From the NCBI GenBank assembly GCA_963662465.1, contig OY759599.1, positions 5,920,001-5,984,000 on the forward strand: a stretch of 64,000 bases of DNA. Direction: 5' to 3'. Below are positions 36,001 through 42,000 of this stretch, one piece after another. The position numbers are program-made. Position 1 is the stretch's first letter, and each line of letters begins with the position of its first letter. This DNA is from Desulfatiglandales bacterium (GTDB lineage Bacteria > Desulfobacterota > DSM-4660 > Desulfatiglandales > Desulfatiglandaceae).

Positions 36001-39000
36001 GACATTTGACGCTGCAACACACTTACGATTTCAATCAAAAAAGCGCGGAAATGCCCCAGAGTCAGGATTCGGAAGATGAGTTTTCTTTATTGTAAGTAAA
36101 TTAAAACTGTTCTACTTAACACCAGGAGAATCAATTCACGCAAACATTTCATTGATAATGGAAATTCAAGAACAGATACTGACAAACATTCAGGATGCTA
36201 AGCATCTCTACCAGAAGCTGATTCTTCTGGTCGGCAAATCCGGTTCCGGTAAGACGGGAATTCTCAAAAAATTTTCCAGCGAGTTTGCTGTCCCCATGAT
36301 CAATGTGAATCTGGAAATGTCTTCCCGTCTTCTGGATATACCCTTGGGGAAGCGAGCATCTAACTTATCCAGGCTGTTTTCAAGCCTCTTTAGCGATACC
36401 GGGAGCGATATGGTGCTCCTGGACAACATGGAGATTCTTTTTGATAAATCTCTTCAGCAAAACCCCCTGTCTCTCCTTCAGAACAATGCAAAGAACCGGG
36501 TCGTAATCGCTGCATGGAATGGAGCCATAGAGAACAGGCGCTTAACCTACGCAAGGCCGGAACACCATGAATTTCAGGCCTACCCGATCGAAGAAGTGGG
36601 TATCACAATCGAACTCAACCCATCGCCGGATGAATAATCCGATCCTGGCTGAAACGGAGGCAACATCATGTATTACCATGAACTCATTCAGTTCGACCCC
36701 ATTGAAACTACCGTCCAGCTCATTGAATCGGATGATAAGGCAAAGGCCCAAGAATTGGTTTCAACGTTTGTTATCTCCGATGACATGGCCCTGAACATTA
36801 CGAAGATCGCTTTTGAACAGCTTCAATTTGATCACCCCATGGATAACAAGGGGCTTTTAATCGTTGGAAACTATGGTACTGGAAAATCCCATCTGATGTC
36901 CGTCATCTCCAGCATTGCGGAATATGAGGACATGGTCGAAAACGTCAAGAATGAATTGGTCGGAAAAGAGGCCCGGAAAATTGCAGGCAAATTCAAGGTG
37001 ATTCGGATTGAAATCGGGTCCAGCACCATGGATTTCAGGGAGATGATCTGTTCTGAGTTAAGCGATGGTCTTGCGAAATGGGGTATTGAATACCGCTTTC
37101 CGAATAGAGATAAAATCACTAATCACAAACAGGCTTTTGAAGAAATGATGGCGGTGTTTCAATCCGTTTATCCTGAAAAAGGTTTACTGCTGGTGCTTGA
37201 CGAATTGCTTGACTATCTCCGTCCCCGGGCGGCCACCCAAAATCCCCCACCTGTGGCCACTTGAAAATCCCCCACCTAAAGAGGTTCAAAATGTAGATTT
37301 TTGATCTTCGGCTCAATTCACAAAATGGTGACAGGACGTTATACCATCTCCCAATGCAATTTAATTGAATTGGGAGGAAGAAAGGATGAACGTTTTGAAG
37401 CCGGACAAGAAATCTACCATCATTACCCTACTTAAAAATGGCGTTGGTCAGCGTGAAGTACATCGTAAGACCAATATTGACAGGAAAACGATCCGAAAAT
37501 ACGCAAAAGAAAGTGGCTTTTTACCCGAAGATTCCGACTTAAATTCAAGATCCCCCACCCTGGCCACCGGGGCTGATTGCATCATCAGTGAAAATCCCCC
37601 ACCCCGGCCACCGGTAAACAGCACATTCAAGGGAGAAAAACGGGCGATTCCACTCCATGCCAGATCAGCATGTGAGCCTCACCGAGAATGGATTGAAAAG
37701 CAGGTGAAGCTCGGGAGGAATGCCGTAGCGATTTACCAAGATTTGGTCGAGCGATTTGCCTTTACCCACAAATACAACAGCGTAAAGCGGTTTGTAAGGG
37801 GACTGAGAAAAGAGGACCCCAAGCAATTCGATCGATTGGAGTTTTTACCAGGGGAAGAGGCTCAGGTAGACTATGGCACGGGAGCCAAAACGCTTCATTC
37901 GACAGGGAAATACCGTAAAACTCGTCTCTTTATAATGACGTTGAAATACTCCAGGCGCTCATTCCGGAAAGTAGTTTGGCAATCAAGCAAAGAAACATGG
38001 GCAAAACTTCATGAGGAGTCATTTCGATATTTCGGAGGTTGCCCCCAATATGTGGTTCTGGACAATTTGAAAGAGGGCGTCATCAAACCGGATCTTTACG
38101 AACCTGAATTGAACACCGTCTATGCGGCCATGCTGGAGCATTACGGGGTTGTTGCAGATCCGGCAAGAGTTAGAGACCCAAACCGGAAAGGGACTGTTGA
38201 AAATGCCGTACAGCATACCCAAGACACAGCTTTAAAAGGTCGCACATTTGAATCGATTGAACGACAGAATGAATGGCTTATGCACTGGGAGGAACAATGG
38301 GCTGCTCAGCGGATACACGGGAGAACCAAGCGACAGGTTGAAGAAATGTTTCAAGAAGAAAAACCGTACCTTAAACAACTTCCCTTAACTGCATTCAGCT
38401 ATTTCAGCCAAGAAATCCGTACGGTCTGGGATGACGGCGCCATTCAGGTGGGGAAATCCTATTATTCAGCCTTGCCGGCGCCCCTTTATACAAAGGTTAT
38501 TGTCAGGATTTATGACAGAGAGATTGAGATTATCAATCCTGTAACAATGGAGATTTTCCGCAGGCACGCCAAGAACAGCAGGCCGGGATCTGTCAATATA
38601 CCGCCGGAAGATAGGATTTTTAATCCTTCACGTCAAACAACGTATCTCTTTGCCAAAGCAGAGAGCATTGGTCCCGCAACTTTAAAATTATGCAAGGTCT
38701 TGTTTGAGGAAGAAGGCAGAACCGGTCAAAGACGAATACAGGGGATTGTCAACCTGGTCCGACATTATGAGGCCCGTTACGTGGAACAGGCCTGCATCAA
38801 AGCCAATAATGTGGGGCTGCGCAATTACAAATCCATCCGCAACCTTGTCAAAACGTTAGCCGAAAAAAACCAGGAAGAAAAGGATTCTGAGGGGCTGATT
38901 CAGGAACATAAATTAATACGCCCTCCGGAAGATTATGCTGCATTCTGGGAGCAGCACGCCGCACAGACACCGGTTTCGGAGGAAGGAGCAAACCGTTTTG

Positions 39001-42000
39001 TCATGCCCAAAGAGCAACTACCCGCAGTTTGGAAAAATGCAAGCTGGGAGAGAGTGATTGATGTTTTTGGCCTGGAAGTTGATGGAAACCGCCGCTGTAA
39101 GGCCAACGAGACATGGATCAAATCGCCTTTTACAGGCGAAAAAACTGCTTCGCTGCATTTGAACCTGACGGAGAATATCTTCAAGGATTTCAGCAGTGGC
39201 CTGGGGGCGAAAGTCGGTGTACTCAATTTCTGCCAGGATCTTTTAGCGCTGCGAGGCCAGGCAATGAATTGCTATGAAGTTGCCTCCTGGATGGTGGAAA
39301 ATGGAATTTCAAATTTGGATATACGTTCACGCGAGGTTAAAAACCATGTTCCTGAACTCAAAAAACCGAAAGAAAACAAACCGATTCAAGTGGATTTAAG
39401 GCGTTTTGTACAGCCGCAACATCCAGAATTAAAACATCGACAGGTTTCAGAGGCGACATGTCGCTATCTGGGATGTGGTTTTCTCCCGGAAAGGCCGAAT
39501 GGAAACAAACAGTCACCTCTCAATGGCCGGTTGGTGTTTCAAGTGCGGGGAATGTCCGGCGCTATACTGACACATGTCGGTCGTGCATTGACACTGCAGC
39601 AAGAAAAAACGAATGGGAAATACTGGAGCTTTCCGTTCTTCAAAAAACTGGAAATATACAACCAGGACAAACTGTTATCAGATGCTTCAGCAAAGGATCA
39701 AGTTCAGCGGCTTGGCTTGGTGCTGGTAGAAGGTTTTTTTGATGTGGCAGTTTTGGTCGAATCGGGTTGTTTGAACGTCGGAGCACTGATGGGGTCGCAC
39801 ATGACCGAACAACAGGCAGCCCGAATAAAGTTAATCAGCTCACACATTGAGATTCCCAAAATTACCGTTTTTTTGGACAGGGATGAAGCTGGGAGGATTG
39901 GCGCACAAAAAGCAGTTACTGTGCTGCGGAAAAATGGGTTTTCAGCCGAGGCCTTTGACTGGAACCAGACCCTTGGGTCGTCATTTGTGAAAATCCCAAT
40001 GGCCGTTATGGATCCAGGCGATATGTCGTTAAGGCAGCTAAAGTGGTTGAGAAAAAAGGGAAACATTTGATTTCCATCGCCACGTTCTCGGTGGCGCGGA
40101 AATTTGTTTAACCTAAACGGCCATCCGAAGGAATCGGGCTTATGTATAAGCGAATATGGTCGGACTTTTTGAATCTCGTTACACGATAATCATAGGGCTT
40201 GATTGTTTTGGAGGTGAAAATGGGAGGCGGAAAACGTATGGGAGCCAGTCGAAAAAAGAAATCAGATCATTTGAGACGTGAACTGCTGACAATTCGATTG
40301 CCGAAGTGGATGATTTCACAGCTCAAAAACAAATGTGAAATTGGCTATTTGATCGAGGATCAATTAAGGAATCGGGCTTATGTATAGGCGAATATGGTCG
40401 GACTTTTTGAATCTCGTTACACGATAATCATAGGGCTTGATTGTTTTGGAGGTGAAAATGCGAGGCGGAAAACGTACGGGAGCCGGTCGAAAAAAGAAAT
40501 CAGATCATTTGAGACGTGAACTGCTGACAATTCGATTGCCGAAGTGGATGATTTCACAGCTCAAAAACAAATGTGAAATTGGCTATTTGATCGAGGATCA
40601 ATTGAGGAAGATAGATTTTTTGGATATCCCGGATGACTATGACATTGATAACTGAAATCGAGAAAGGAGAAACTGAATATGCCGATGTCAATGCAGGAAA
40701 TAGAGAAAAGTCTAGGAACGCTACGTTTAAGCGGTATGCGAGCAACATTAGAAACCCGAGTGATACAGGCAAATCAAGGAGAATCTTCTTTCCTGGAAGT
40801 CTTTTCATGCCTGCTTCAGGATGAGTTAGATTACAGGCGGTCGTGCCTGATAGAACGTAGATTTAATGCTTCCGGTCTTCGTGAGAGAAAAACATTGACT
40901 GAGTTTGATTGGGGCTTTAATCCAAGACTTCCAAAAAAGGAAATTTTTGAACTGGTGACCATCAAATTTATACACAACGGTGAAGACGCACTCCTGATCG
41001 GTTCTCCCGGGACTGGGAAAAGCCATATCGTTAAAACAATTGCTCATGCTGCAACACAGGCATGCCATCAGGTTGTTTATCGTGAGGCCCATACTTTCTT
41101 TGAAGATGTCTTCGAAGCAGCCCAAACAGGGAAGACAAAAAAAATAACAAAGCTTTTTTCAGAAGCAGACTTGCTAATAATAGATGATCTTTTCCTGAGA
41201 AAAAGGGTCCCTGAACATGCGGCAGATGATCTTCTTGATATCATACTGAATCGTTATTCCAAAAGAAAAAGTACACTCATAACATCAAACCGTCCGGTGG
41301 AGGACTGGGGTAAACTGCTCAGAGACAATGCCGCATCCTCTGCGATCCTTGACAGGTTGCTCCACCGAGGCCATTTGCTCAAATTTGAAGGAAAAAGCTA
41401 CAGGCTAAAGGAGGCTGCAGAAAAACTTGCCATAGGGAAGAAAAAAGAATAAAGTGTAACCGTTCTGTCGCTGAAGATCTTTCCAATGCCACGGTCAAGA
41501 TCCTACATGGCCACCTTCACAGGTGGGGGATTTTGGGGTGGCCACAAGTGGGGGATTTTGAAGTGGCCATCCGGGCCGTCAAAGGAAAATGCAGGAATTG
41601 GTCCGGGACCTTGGGTTTTTGAGGGAAATCGGGGAGGTCTGCAAGAACCTTCGCTTTCGTTTCATGGCAGGCGTCCAGGAAGCCATCTTTGATACAGATT
41701 CGTTCGAATTTGTTTCTGGCAGCATCAAAAGGGTTAAAGATAGATTTGAACAGGTATTGATTGCCAAGAAGGACGTGAAGTTTGTGGTCTCTCAAAGACT
41801 CCTTCAAAAGACGCCCGAGCAAAAAGCCCGGATTGCAGCCTATTTGGCTCCTTTTTCGAAATTTTATGAGCAGATGAATGAAAGGATGGATGATTATGTG
41901 GAGCTTTTCCCCATTCATCCTGAATATATTGATACATTTGAAAAAATAAGAGCGGTCGAAAAGCGAGAAGTGTTGAGGACCTTTTCCCGTGCCATGAAAG

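What a model noticed while it worked through the whole genome (the two positions that open the first line are those of the whole stretch)
37224..41575. IS21-family transposase fused to a complete DnaG-type primase
A 4352-bp insertion sequence in three 100%-identical copies encodes an 894-aa protein whose first ~490 residues are an IS21 IstA transposase and whose last ~415 residues look like a whole bacterial DnaG primase (zinc-binding-domain fold plus RNA-polymerase/Toprim domain with its acidic motifs intact), followed by two small ORFs and IstB. I read it as a transposase that primes replication at its own strand-transfer intermediate, a self-priming replicative DDE transposon. A DDE transposase-primase fusion is not part of the described IS21 mechanism.
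Evidence so far: Copies at 5957224-5961575, 6818096-6822447, 7835547-7839898 (100% over 4352 bp) plus two fragments; imperfect terminal inverted repeats with reiterated boxes and ~5-bp target duplications; copy 1 splits a BREX DUF6079 gene, copy 2 sits inside another IS21-like element. The NCBIfam IS21 transposase model covers 36% of g05443; Pfam Toprim_2/Toprim_4 at 778-858. C-terminal 415 aa: 8 of the 9 PDB sequences hit by phmmer at E<=1 are DnaG primases (best 3.3e-07 over the RNA-polymerase domain; weak hit to the primase zinc-binding domain), weak Pfam DNAG_N and Zn_ribbon_DnaG. AlphaFold model (29-row alignment, mean pLDDT 60.5; residues 60-165 and 285-415 mostly above 70): best Foldseek hit Aquifex D [...]
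(Added by a program. Inside this text positions count along the whole contig: contig position 5,920,001 is position 1 of the stretch shown here. "Call 12" and the like, gene names such as g00115 and contig names such as C1 are that model's own, and its searches are not shown. The text may have been shortened before it was handed on; [...] marks where a part breaks off. The agent that wrote the report below was given it as the finding of a first reader that could run no searches.)

Follow-up and report, generated by a model that had tools for sequence, protein, structure and literature searches.

The report
IS21 transposase fused to a primase
This is a recently active jumping gene of the IS21 family whose cut-and-join enzyme carries a plasmid-type primase on its tail, which suggests that it starts its own DNA copying when it moves, something not described for this kind of element.

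Summary
Confirmed. Window 37224-41575 is a 4,352-bp IS21-family element: three identical copies, 5-bp target duplications and reiterated terminal boxes. It splits the BrxC gene of a BREX locus.

Its 894-aa transposase is an end-to-end fusion. Residues 1-528 match a whole canonical IstA. Residues 543-894 match a whole ~380-aa DnaG-type primase: a ZBD fold plus the RNA-polymerase/Toprim core (AF2 pLDDT 92.6; Z 20.2 to Aquifex DnaG).

It is not a "whole DnaG". The helicase-binding domain is absent and all four zinc ligands are replaced.

The fusion is a large family: 561 clusters matched the primase part. The catalytic acidic and basic residues are kept in 70-72 of 72 members, and dN/dS is 0.10-0.16. 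The nearest free-standing relatives lie beside relaxase and coupling-protein genes of mobilizable elements. Trees point to one capture and at least two later losses, so the module helps but is not essential.

Best reading (0.55): a transposase-tethered primase primes the DNA synthesis that replicative (copy-out/paste-in) IS21 transposition needs. Both the activity and the step are inferred.

Nine literature searches found no description. The scan noted the same fusion earlier in another genome. Verdict: new variant of a known kind.

The parts
37219..37223 (.). left copy of the 5-bp target-site duplication CCGTC
   Evidence: the same pentamer follows the right end
37224..37277 (+). left terminal inverted repeat (starts CCCGG) with two reiterated boxes (37237-37251, 37262-37276)
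   Evidence: I1-I3, D2. The identity between the three copies starts exactly at 37224. Contigs of other samples diverge exactly at 37224 (table 7).
37545..37603 (+). two further copies of the terminal box inside the 5' part of istA (37545-37559, 37589-37603)
   Evidence: D2, D4, I6, I7
37386..40070 (+). istA-primase fusion gene, 894 aa (P0001)
   Evidence: The frame is open and continuous in 29 of 35 related genome loci.
37386..38969 (+). IstA part, residues 1-528: HTH, DDE core (D162, D226, E272), beta-barrel and C-terminal helical region
   Evidence: NF033546 covers 14-333. Residues 1-528 align with 1-528 of the 538-aa primase-less IstA P0441, 67% identical. The DDE residues are kept in 71-72 of 72.
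38970..39011 (+). fusion joint, residues 529-542
   Evidence: lies between the ends of the two pairwise alignments
39012..39317 (+). ZBD-fold domain without zinc ligands, residues about 543-644 (ligand positions S580, T583, D601, S604)
   Evidence: Profile vs PDB: 1d0q E 2.4e-15; 2au3 first stretch. VIA Z 9.3 over 94 residues to 1d0q. Ligand-equivalent residues are conserved as S/T/D/S in 65-72 of 72.
39324..39347 (+). flexible linker between the ZBD-like and RPD parts (residues 647-654)
   Evidence: model residues 117-124 have pLDDT < 50
39378..40067 (+). DnaG-type RNA-polymerase core: N-terminal subdomain plus Toprim (residues 665-894). Motifs: R715, G732-R733, K745-Y746, E782-G-x-x-D786, D831-x-D833, D876/D879.
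40128..40603 (+). tandem duplication, 2 x 238 bp, 98% identical
   Evidence: D1. Relatives L012-L014 have a single unit.
40199..40387 (+). small ORF, first copy (different C-terminus because of the duplication boundary)
40437..40655 (+). small accessory ORF, second copy (65 aa from the ATG at 40458); possibly ribbon-helix-helix, unverified
   Evidence: 187 clusters, nearly all 65 aa, no Pfam family. The nearest named atlas clusters are RHH/CcdA/NikA-like at 0.85-0.88, leads only. 100% identical in L012-L014.
40679..41452 (+). istB, AAA+ helper ATPase, 257 aa
   Evidence: PF01695 E 7e-51; NF038214 212.5 bits against cut-off 200
41518..41575 (+). right terminal inverted repeat with two 25-nt boxes
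   Evidence: D3, I1-I3. Identity between copies ends at 41575. A contig of another sample diverges at 41575.
41576..41580 (.). right copy of the target-site duplication CCGTC
36668..37223 (+). 5' part of the interrupted BrxC/PglY (DUF6079) gene
   Evidence: PF19557 positions 1-189; PADLOC BrxC 1-188
41581..44738 (+). 3' part of the interrupted BrxC/PglY gene
   Evidence: PF19557 positions 190-1238; PADLOC BrxC 190-1231

Best explanation
The element is an active IS21-family insertion sequence. Its transposase gene is a head-to-tail fusion of a complete IstA and a complete primase of the short DnaG type found on mobilizable and conjugative elements. The primase part has a ZBD fold that has lost its zinc ligands, a short flexible linker, and the RNA-polymerase/Toprim core. 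It has no helicase-binding domain.

Proposed mechanism:
- The IstA part binds the reiterated terminal boxes, synapses the ends and does the DDE chemistry. IstB delivers the target, giving 5-bp duplications. This step is inferred from family membership and the published IS21 structures.
- The primase, held at the transposon ends by its covalent tether instead of by DnaB, lays RNA primers on the single-stranded or branched DNA that the transposase creates. That DNA would be the figure-eight of a copy-out/paste-in pathway, or the fork at a strand-transfer product.
- Second-strand synthesis of the new copy then need not wait for the host DnaB-DnaG primosome. This step is inferred and not shown.

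The module is an accessory that improves the step rather than an essential part, because sister lineages have lost it.
For: Anatomy:
- Residues 1-528 align with the whole primase-less IstA P0441 at 67% identity.
- Residues 543-894 align with residues 14-380 of the 380-aa stand-alone primase P0143, E 3e-65.

Fold:
- AF2 mean pLDDT is 92.6.
- Foldseek's best match is 2au3, Aquifex DnaG ZBD+RPD, E 1.7e-16. All matches listed at E<=0.001 are DnaG, T7, T4 or Twinkle primases.
- VIA gives Z 20.2 to 2au3 and Z 16-19.4 to DnaG RPDs at rmsd 2.7-3.0 A over about 204 residues. RecR and RNase M5 score Z 10.3 or less, over the Toprim part only.

Sequence:
- The profile of A1 hits 2au3 at E 1.6e-41 in two stretches (ZBD and RPD). 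13 of 14 PDB hits are primases.

Selection:
- In 72 full-length fusions, E782, D786, D831, D833, R715, R733 and Y746 are kept in 72 of 72. D876 is kept in 71 and D879 in 70. K745 is K in 61 and R in 11.
- dN/dS against L012-L014 is 0.10-0.16 for the primase part and 0.085-0.089 for IstA.

Spread:
- 561 clusters match the primase part at E<=1e-3; nearly all of the 120 listed are 880-950 aa with rve plus Toprim.
- 35 genome loci carry istA-primase, and 29 of the 35 have an open continuous frame.

Origin:
- 12 of 15 stand-alone relatives examined lie within about 4.5 kb of relaxase, MobC/NikA or T4 coupling-protein genes. These are primases expected to work on ssDNA without DnaB; that expectation rests on established knowledge of conjugative primases and is recalled.

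Need for replication:
- In copy-out/paste-in the figure-eight is converted to a circle by host replication (PMC7780238, passages).

Recent activity: three identical copies with target duplications.
Against: - There is no biochemical or genetic test of primase activity or of its role.
- All four zinc ligands of the ZBD are replaced (S580, T583, D601, S604), and this holds throughout the family.
- Some fused relatives have lost part or all of the ZBD-like domain: L098 is 852 aa and L100/L102 are 791 aa.
- Primase-less istA-istB elements (L093-L097, L103, L124) have IstA 61-67% and IstB 64-73% identical to ours (L096's IstB is cut by the contig end), much the same level as the fused group. They nest among fused elements on the IstA tree. 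The AU test rejects fused IstAs as one clade, p 2.2e-5, though the group was named after the tree was seen. The primase is therefore dispensable.
- The IS21 pathway itself is only "proposed" to be replicative.
- No abutted-end junction is present in the genome.
- TIGR01391 scores 74.9 bits, far below its 283.6 cut-off.
- An earlier scan note reports a "dead" primase-like gene in another IS21 branch. I did not test it.
Confidence: 0.55

Rival explanations
1. The module is an active primase that keeps its ancestral job from mobilizable elements. It would convert incoming or displaced single-stranded DNA of the carrier replicon to duplex, for example after conjugation. This would benefit the element's spread between cells rather than the transposition reaction itself.
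For: The nearest free-standing relatives are encoded beside relaxase, MobC or T4CP genes in 12 of 15 loci. The whole stand-alone protein was captured end to end. The primase is dispensable for related IS21 elements.
Against: The covalent fusion to the transposase is kept as one open frame in 29 of 35 loci and in nearly all of the 120 listed clusters. That is hard to explain if the two activities act apart. The three copies here are chromosomal and not beside transfer genes. No match was found in 72,556 plasmids at E<=1e-10.
Confidence: 0.15
2. The domain no longer polymerises. It would serve as an ssDNA- or fork-binding, targeting or regulatory module that, for example, steers the transpososome to replication forks or single-stranded regions.
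For: The zinc ligands are lost in all 72 fusions. The ZBD is deleted in some relatives. The whole module has been lost repeatedly. An earlier scan note (e1-6781085, untested here) reports an inactive primase-like gene in another IS21 branch.
Against: The metal-binding acidic residues and the basic residues of the RPD are kept in 70-72 of 72 fusions that are down to 63% identical overall. The ZBD-less variants also keep EGFFD, DRDE(T/A)G and DPGD. The stand-alone relatives from mobilizable elements share the incomplete zinc site, so its loss did not come with the fusion.
Confidence: 0.15
3. The Toprim part acts as a nuclease that cuts the non-transferred strand, as TnsA does for Tn7. This would turn a replicative pathway into cut-and-paste.
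For: Toprim domains include nucleases (OLD, RNase M5). Pfam sees mainly Toprim families in this part.
Against: The whole DnaG RPD is present and conserved, including its N-terminal subdomain and a ZBD fold. Nuclease and RecR Toprim proteins match only the about 100-126-residue Toprim subdomain, at Z 10.3 or less against 16-20 for primases. 13 of 14 profile hits in the PDB are primases.
Confidence: 0.07
4. The primase is a neutral passenger on its way to decay.
For: It has been lost at least twice and partly deleted in some lineages.
Against: dN/dS is 0.10-0.16. The catalytic residues are kept across 72 proteins. The fused primase domains form one clade (SH-aLRT 99) with deep divergence, down to about 47% identity.
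Confidence: 0.03

Closest known systems
Canonical IS21-family insertion sequences (IS21, IS5376): istA DDE transposase plus istB AAA+ helper
   Same: IstA scores above the NCBIfam equivalog cut-off, IstB likewise, and the gene order is istA then istB. The terminal inverted repeats have reiterated sub-terminal boxes, and the target duplication is 5 bp. Residues 1-528 align with a whole canonical IstA.
   Different: A 352-aa primase is fused behind IstA, and a duplicated 65-aa ORF lies between the two genes. The element is 4.35 kb; about 2-2.6 kb is usual for the family (recalled from ISfinder, not checked). The passages I read in the IS21 structure papers have no word on a primase.
Bacterial DnaG primase
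   Same: It has the ZBD fold and the RNA-polymerase core with Toprim, including the EGxxD and DxD acidic motifs and the R / GR / KY basic motifs. The motif names are recalled.
   Different: There is no C-terminal helicase (DnaB)-binding domain, and the helical C-terminal subdomain of the RPD is missing: alignments to E. coli chains end at about residue 363. All four zinc ligands are replaced. TIGR01391 scores 74.9 bits against its 283.6 cut-off.
Short stand-alone DnaG-type primases of mobilizable or conjugative elements (about 340-440 aa; relatives found here such as P0143, L045, L048)
   Same: The architecture is the same from first helix to last residue, 33-40% identical. The zinc site is incomplete in most of them too. 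In the tree they form the nearest clade.
   Different: They are free-standing genes beside relaxase, MobC or T4CP genes. The fused domains form their own clade (99) beside theirs, not inside it.
Phage T7 gp4 primase-helicase (a primase tethered covalently to its partner)
   Same: It is a minimal ZBD plus RPD primase brought to its template by a covalent tether. The RPD matches at Z 17.8, rmsd 3.0 A.
   Different: In T7 the partner is a helicase; here it is a DDE transposase. The functional analogy is inference.
IEE, the PrimPol-helicase that enhances IS excision
   Same: It is a primase-type enzyme whose effect is tied to copy-out/paste-in IS families, among which the preprint lists IS21 (10.1101/2023.06.07.543989, passages).
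   Different: IEE is an AEP/PrimPol, unrelated in fold to DnaG. It is encoded separately from the IS, and it promotes excision.

Membership tests
IS21 family insertion sequence | IstA-type DDE transposase | tested here: met
   NF033546 scores 261.6 bits against cut-off 160, residues 14-333. D162, D226 and E272 are kept in 71-72 of 72.
IS21 family insertion sequence | IstB AAA+ helper encoded downstream of istA | tested here: met
   NF038214 scores 212.5 bits against 200; PF01695 E 7e-51
IS21 family insertion sequence | terminal inverted repeats with several repeated transposase-binding boxes, and short target duplications | tested here: met
   (I1-I3, D2-D4). The TSDs are CCGTC, TCCAC and one 6-of-7 match. 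That 4-8 bp is the usual range is recalled.
IS21 family insertion sequence | only istA and istB as genes (usual anatomy) | tested here: not met
   extra primase module and a 65-aa ORF
DnaG-type primase (TIGR01391 / bacterial DnaG) | CHC2 zinc-binding domain | tested here: not met
   The fold is present (1d0q E 2.4e-15 with the profile; Z 9.3). The four ligand positions, however, are S, T, D and S.
DnaG-type primase (TIGR01391 / bacterial DnaG) | RNA-polymerase core with Toprim fold and acidic metal-binding motifs | tested here: met
   E782, D786, D831 and D833 are kept in 72 of 72.
DnaG-type primase (TIGR01391 / bacterial DnaG) | C-terminal helicase-binding domain | tested here: not met
   The protein ends 15 residues after D879. 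Structural matches stop within the RPD.
DnaG-type primase (TIGR01391 / bacterial DnaG) | equivalog score cut-off | tested here: not met
   74.9 bits against 283.6
DnaG-type primase (TIGR01391 / bacterial DnaG) | template-dependent primer synthesis | not testable with these tools
   needs a biochemical assay
Stand-alone primases of mobilizable/conjugative elements (clade found here) | placement inside that clade | tested here: not met
   The fused domains form a separate clade (99) next to the 28-row stand-alone clade (97). The order of the branches is unresolved and the tree is a quick one.
Stand-alone primases of mobilizable/conjugative elements (clade found here) | encoded beside relaxase or coupling-protein genes | tested here: not met
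   The window's neighbours are BREX genes and other IS elements.

The most novel reading that the evidence does not exclude
These IS21 elements are self-priming replicative transposons. The transposase delivers its own primase to the branched intermediate it has just made, so the copy-out (or fork-restart) synthesis starts without the host DnaB-DnaG/PriA primosome. This would be the first DDE insertion sequence that supplies part of its own replication machinery. The module was captured once from a mobilizable element and later shed by some lineages.
Probability: 0.4. Interest if true: 0.85.

Novelty: new variant of a known kind. Interest (0 to 1): 0.7.

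Why it matters
Replicative IS transposition is described as depending on the host replication machinery to process its intermediates (PMC7780238, passages). 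Whether IS21 really uses such a pathway is still only "proposed" (PMC11208146, passages).

- **A direct experimental handle.** In this family the transposase carries a conserved primase. If primase-dead mutants accumulate figure-eights or lose transposition, that settles both that IS21-type elements need priming and where.
- **A third way to bring a DnaG-type primase to its template.** The known ways are binding a helicase and fusion to a helicase; here the primase is fused to a DDE transposase.
- **A natural zinc-free ZBD.**
- **An effect on defence.** In this genome the element has knocked out the BrxC gene of a BREX defence locus.

Tried and rejected
- The search for related loci with the 49-row alignment A1 failed because it had no stretch conserved enough. 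I made the 13-row A2 and the scan worked.
- The literature term 'IstA' matched 'iSTAND' in a BREX paper, which is irrelevant.
- By title, abstract or the passages I looked at, no listed paper describes an IS21 or DDE transposase fused to a DnaG-type primase. Papers outside the held library and ISfinder could not be consulted, and no supplements were read.
- tblastn of the primase part against 72,556 plasmids found no match at E<=1e-10.
- No earlier scan note was found by sequence. One search (by words) found three.
- The reads of four runs were Logan contigs only. No joint of right end to left end (circle or tandem junction) was listed. Contigs from two RNA libraries cover relatives of the element, but this does not show transcription. 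The depth ratio of element to flank in X1 (about 225 to 50) is not a copy number.
- No abutted-end junction exists in the assembled genome.
- No Rfam family matched at E<=0.1 in 36900-41900.
- The promoter and terminator scans gave nothing that stands out where it would matter.
- A full-length fold from alignment A3 was not accepted by the tool. How the primase sits relative to the IstA domains is left open.
- Only 1 of 400 other sampled genomes of the same phylum has a match at E<=1e-80. The family is patchy, and IS elements are often unassembled in draft genomes.
- L052's ORFs were listed but not scanned. L057 and L066-L091 (weak, Toprim-only hits) were not analysed.
- Of the best 120 IstA-part homologues, about a dozen are 538-587 aa with rve only. 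Loci for one of them (P0441) show true primase-less elements. The others were not resolved.

Full report
**1. What is in the sequence**

Window 37224-41575 (4352 bp) occurs three times in the 8.16-Mb genome at 100% identity over its whole length. There are also three end fragments: bases 1-562 at 100%, 3891-4352 at 96% and 4058-4352 at 97%.

The ends are imperfect inverted repeats starting CCCGG. Each holds two copies of a GGCCAC...AAAATCCCCCAC box, and two more boxes lie about 320-380 bp inside the left end.

The flanks give 5-bp target duplications: CCGTC at the window copy and TCCAC at copy 2. The third copy has a 6-of-7 match, TCAAGAT/TCAAGAA.

Removing the element and one CCGTC joins the two halves of a DUF6079 gene in frame (read). 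That gene is BrxC/PglY of a BREX locus. BrxF lies upstream, and PglXI (itself split by another IS) and BrxHI/HII lie downstream.

In Logan contigs of other samples, sequences like the element diverge from the window exactly at 37224 and 41575 (table 7). This independently marks the ends.

**2. The genes**

- The first gene, 37386-40067, has GGAGG 7 nt before its ATG and encodes 894 aa.
- A tandem duplication of 2 x 238 bp, 98% identical, follows. Each unit carries a small ORF. The second, intact copy is 65 aa from its ATG.
- istB follows at 40679-41452 (PF01695 E 7e-51; NF038214 212.5 bits against 200).
- The closest relatives, three loci in a Desulfatiglandales MAG, have one copy of the small ORF that is 100% identical. 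Relatives at about 49% primase identity have none.
- The small ORF belongs to a family of 187 clusters, nearly all 65 aa, with no Pfam family and found on short contigs. The language-model atlas places it nearest to ribbon-helix-helix-type clusters at 0.85-0.88, which is only a lead.

**3. The 894-aa protein is an end-to-end fusion**

- Residues 14-333 match the NCBIfam IS21 transposase equivalog at 261.6 bits against a cut-off of 160.
- Residues 1-528 align with residues 1-528 of a 538-aa primase-less IstA (P0441) at 67% identity.
- Residues 543-894 align with residues 14-380 of a 380-aa stand-alone protein (P0143), E 3e-65, right to both C-termini.
- The joint is therefore residues 529-542, not about 490.
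[quoted passage not shown] The primase hangs from that flexible end.

**4. The C-terminal module is a DnaG-type primase core**

*Single-sequence searches.* Pfam gives Toprim_2 and Toprim_4. TIGR01391 dnaG gives E 5.4e-21, at 74.9 bits against a 283.6 cut-off. phmmer against the PDB gives 8 primases among 9 hits at E<=1.

*Profile search.* A profile of the module plus 48 relatives (A1) hits Aquifex DnaG (2au3) at E 1.6e-41. The match comes in two stretches that cover its zinc-binding domain and its RNA-polymerase domain. It hits the isolated ZBD 1d0q at 2.4e-15. 13 of the 14 hits are primases.

*Model.* With that alignment AlphaFold2 gives mean pLDDT 92.6. Only residues 1-6 and 117-124 of the model fall below 50.

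*Fold search.*
- Foldseek's best match is 2au3 at E 1.7e-16, and every match listed at E<=0.001 is a DnaG, T7, T4 or Twinkle primase.
- VIA-align gives Z 20.2 to 2au3 over 290 aligned residues.
- DnaG RPDs score Z 16-19.4 at rmsd 2.7-3.0 A over about 204 residues.
- T7 gp4 primase scores 17.8 and the ZBD 1d0q scores 9.3 over 94 residues.
- RecR, RNase M5 and gyrase match only the Toprim subdomain, at Z 10.3 or less.

*What is missing.* The chain ends 15 residues after the last acidic motif. The alignments to E. coli DnaG chains stop at about residue 363. So the C-terminal helical part of the RPD and the whole helicase-binding domain are absent. The four zinc-ligand positions read S580, T583, D601 and S604. 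"A whole DnaG" is therefore an overstatement.

**5. It is a family under selection**

- A word-indexed search with the primase part found 561 clusters at E<=1e-3. Nearly all of the 120 listed are 880-950 aa with rve plus Toprim. Where a source names them, the name is "IS21 family transposase" or "transposase/ribonuclease M5".
- In the species-representative genome collection, 35 loci carry istA-primase and then istB. They come from Thermodesulfobacteriota, Acidobacteriota/Terriglobia and others.
- 29 of the 35 have one open continuous frame. The other 6 carry stops or frameshifts.
- In the more distant group, IstA is 61-68% identical, IstB 70-76% and the primase part 47-50%.
- In 72 full-length fusions down to 63% overall identity (A3):

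| Residue(s) | Kept in |
|---|---|
| E782, D786, D831, D833, R715, R733, Y746 | 72 of 72 |
| D876 | 71 of 72 |
| D879 | 70 of 72 |
| K745 | K in 61, R in 11 |
| S580 (zinc-ligand position) | 72 of 72 |
| T583 (zinc-ligand position) | T in 65, S in 7 |
| D601 (zinc-ligand position) | 72 of 72 |
| S604 (zinc-ligand position) | 71 of 72 |

  A wider set of 95 gave the same picture.
- Against the three close loci, dN/dS is 0.10-0.16 for the primase part and 0.085-0.089 for IstA.
- The family is patchy. Only 1 of 400 other sampled genomes of the same phylum has a match at E<=1e-80.

**6. Where the module came from**

The exhaustive representative search found 2758 proteins at E<=0.001. After the fusion family come many stand-alone proteins of about 340-440 aa that match end to end at 33-46% identity. 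Cellular DnaG (about 600-670 aa) appears only from about E 1e-14. The stand-alone proteins carry Pfam Zn_ribbon_DnaG and Toprim hits, although most also lack a full ligand set.

I examined the surroundings of 15 such genes in named genomes. 12 have MobA/VirD2 relaxase, MobC/NikA or a T4 coupling protein within about 4.5 kb. ParA, Rep3, integrases and toxin-antitoxin pairs are often nearby. Of the 3 without, 2 are cut by a contig end. One further locus, L052, was listed but not scanned.

On a quick tree of 66 primase domains:
- The 24 fused domains, plus one 383-aa protein (P0122), form one clade (SH-aLRT 99).
- Next to it is a clade (97) of 28 stand-alone proteins that holds all 10 with a transfer-gene context.
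- Both sit behind a long branch (100) away from other stand-alone forms and from DnaG.

**7. The module has been lost again**

- A scan for relatives of the 538-aa IstA found elements with istB directly behind istA and no primase. Their IstA is 61-67% and their IstB 64-73% identical to ours (the lowest, L096, is cut by the contig end), much the same level as the distant fused group.
- On an IstA tree of 44 rows, all 24 fused proteins fall in one clade (96). That clade also holds 5 primase-less and 4 short proteins. Deeper branches are all primase-less.
- An AU test rejects the fused IstAs as a single clade (p 2.2e-5). The caveat is that the group was named after the tree was seen.
- One subclade shows a series: full fusion (P0111), ZBD partly deleted (L098, 852 aa), ZBD-like part absent with all RPD motifs intact (L100/L102, 791 aa), and no primase (L097).
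- Together with the single clade of fused primase domains, the simplest reading is one capture and at least two losses. Swapping of modules between elements is not excluded.

**8. How it most likely works**

*Shown:*
- The element is a recently active IS21-type element.
- The transposase part is complete with an intact DDE triad.
- The appended module has the fold and the conserved catalytic residues of a DnaG-type primase, and it is under purifying selection.
- It lacks the domain by which DnaG is normally brought to DNA by DnaB.

*From the literature:*
[quoted passage not shown] It is listed among the IS families with circular intermediates (preprint 10.1101/2023.06.07.543989).
- In that pathway the figure-eight is turned into a duplex circle by DNA replication supplied by the host (PMC7780238).

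*Inferred:* The tethered primase primes synthesis on the single-stranded or branched DNA made by the transposase. By analogy, the ancestral stand-alone primases of transfer elements are expected to prime on transferred single strands without DnaB (recalled knowledge of conjugative primases such as RP4 TraC and ColIb Sog, not checked here). Because sister lineages manage without it, it would speed up or free the step from the host rather than be indispensable. I put this at 0.55.

*Rivals:*

| Reading | Confidence |
|---|---|
| Retained transfer-related priming role | 0.15 |
| Non-catalytic ssDNA or fork binding, or targeting | 0.15 |
| Toprim nuclease for the second strand | 0.07 |
| Decaying passenger | 0.03 |

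**9. Novelty**

Nine literature searches turned up no description of an IS21 or other DDE transposase fused to a DnaG-type primase, judging by titles, abstracts and the passages I opened. The IS21 structure papers do not contain the word primase. ISfinder, subscription journals and supplements were not seen. Public annotation simply calls these proteins IS21 family transposases.

This scan had already noted the same fusion in another genome and reached the same reading (e1-4973161). It had also noted IS21 elements with separate zinc-finger and primase-like genes (e1-6780930, e1-6781085). In the present genome I found another IS21-like element with a free-standing CHC2 zinc-finger ORF behind istB, which fits that wider pattern.

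I class the finding as a new variant of a known kind.

Noticed in passing
L092:2755-6343 and L002:1317-1541 (genome C1:6814254-6818136, just upstream of copy 2): Copy 2 is inserted in the small ORF of another IS21-like element. Its gene order is a ParB-HTH-like ORF (298 aa), an IstA-like protein (494 aa), IstB (276 aa), a free-standing CHC2 DnaG-type zinc-finger ORF (164 aa, PF01807 E 1.1e-7, cysteines present), and then the small ORF.
   Followed up: partly
window 30979-34250 (and about 30 other places in the genome, e.g. L011): An abundant IS21-like element carries a ParB-HTH-like ORF (294 aa), IstA (460 aa), IstB (239 aa) and a 69-aa ORF. That ORF's DNA is 76% identical to the small ORF of the primase element, so the same small gene travels with at least three different IS21-type elements here.
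   Followed up: partly
window 36152-54287: A BREX locus is hit twice by mobile elements. BrxF (36152-36637) is intact. BrxC is split by the primase element. PglXI is split into 46828-48243 and 50356-51498 by a DDE_Tnp_1-type IS on the minus strand (48669-50024). BrxHI/HII lies at 51495-54287. A PD-DExK/PDC-S02 gene lies at 44725-45888.
   Followed up: partly
L098, L100, L102, L097 (metagenome loci): One IstA subclade holds a graded series: full fusion, ZBD partly deleted (852 aa), ZBD-like part absent with RPD motifs intact (791 aa), and no primase (534 aa).
   Followed up: partly
window 54994-56181: One ORF combines a DruA-like (Druantia) region with a DDE_Tnp_1-associated domain.
   Followed up: no
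L012:4411-7092: One of the three near-identical copies in the Desulfatiglandales MAG has a stop at codon 642 of the fusion gene. The other two are open.
   Followed up: no
genome C1:7835547 (copy 3, L001): The flanks read TCAAGAT | element | TCAAGAA. This is not a clean 5-bp duplication. It could be a 7-bp duplication with one change, or a 6-bp one with an extra base at the left end.
   Followed up: no
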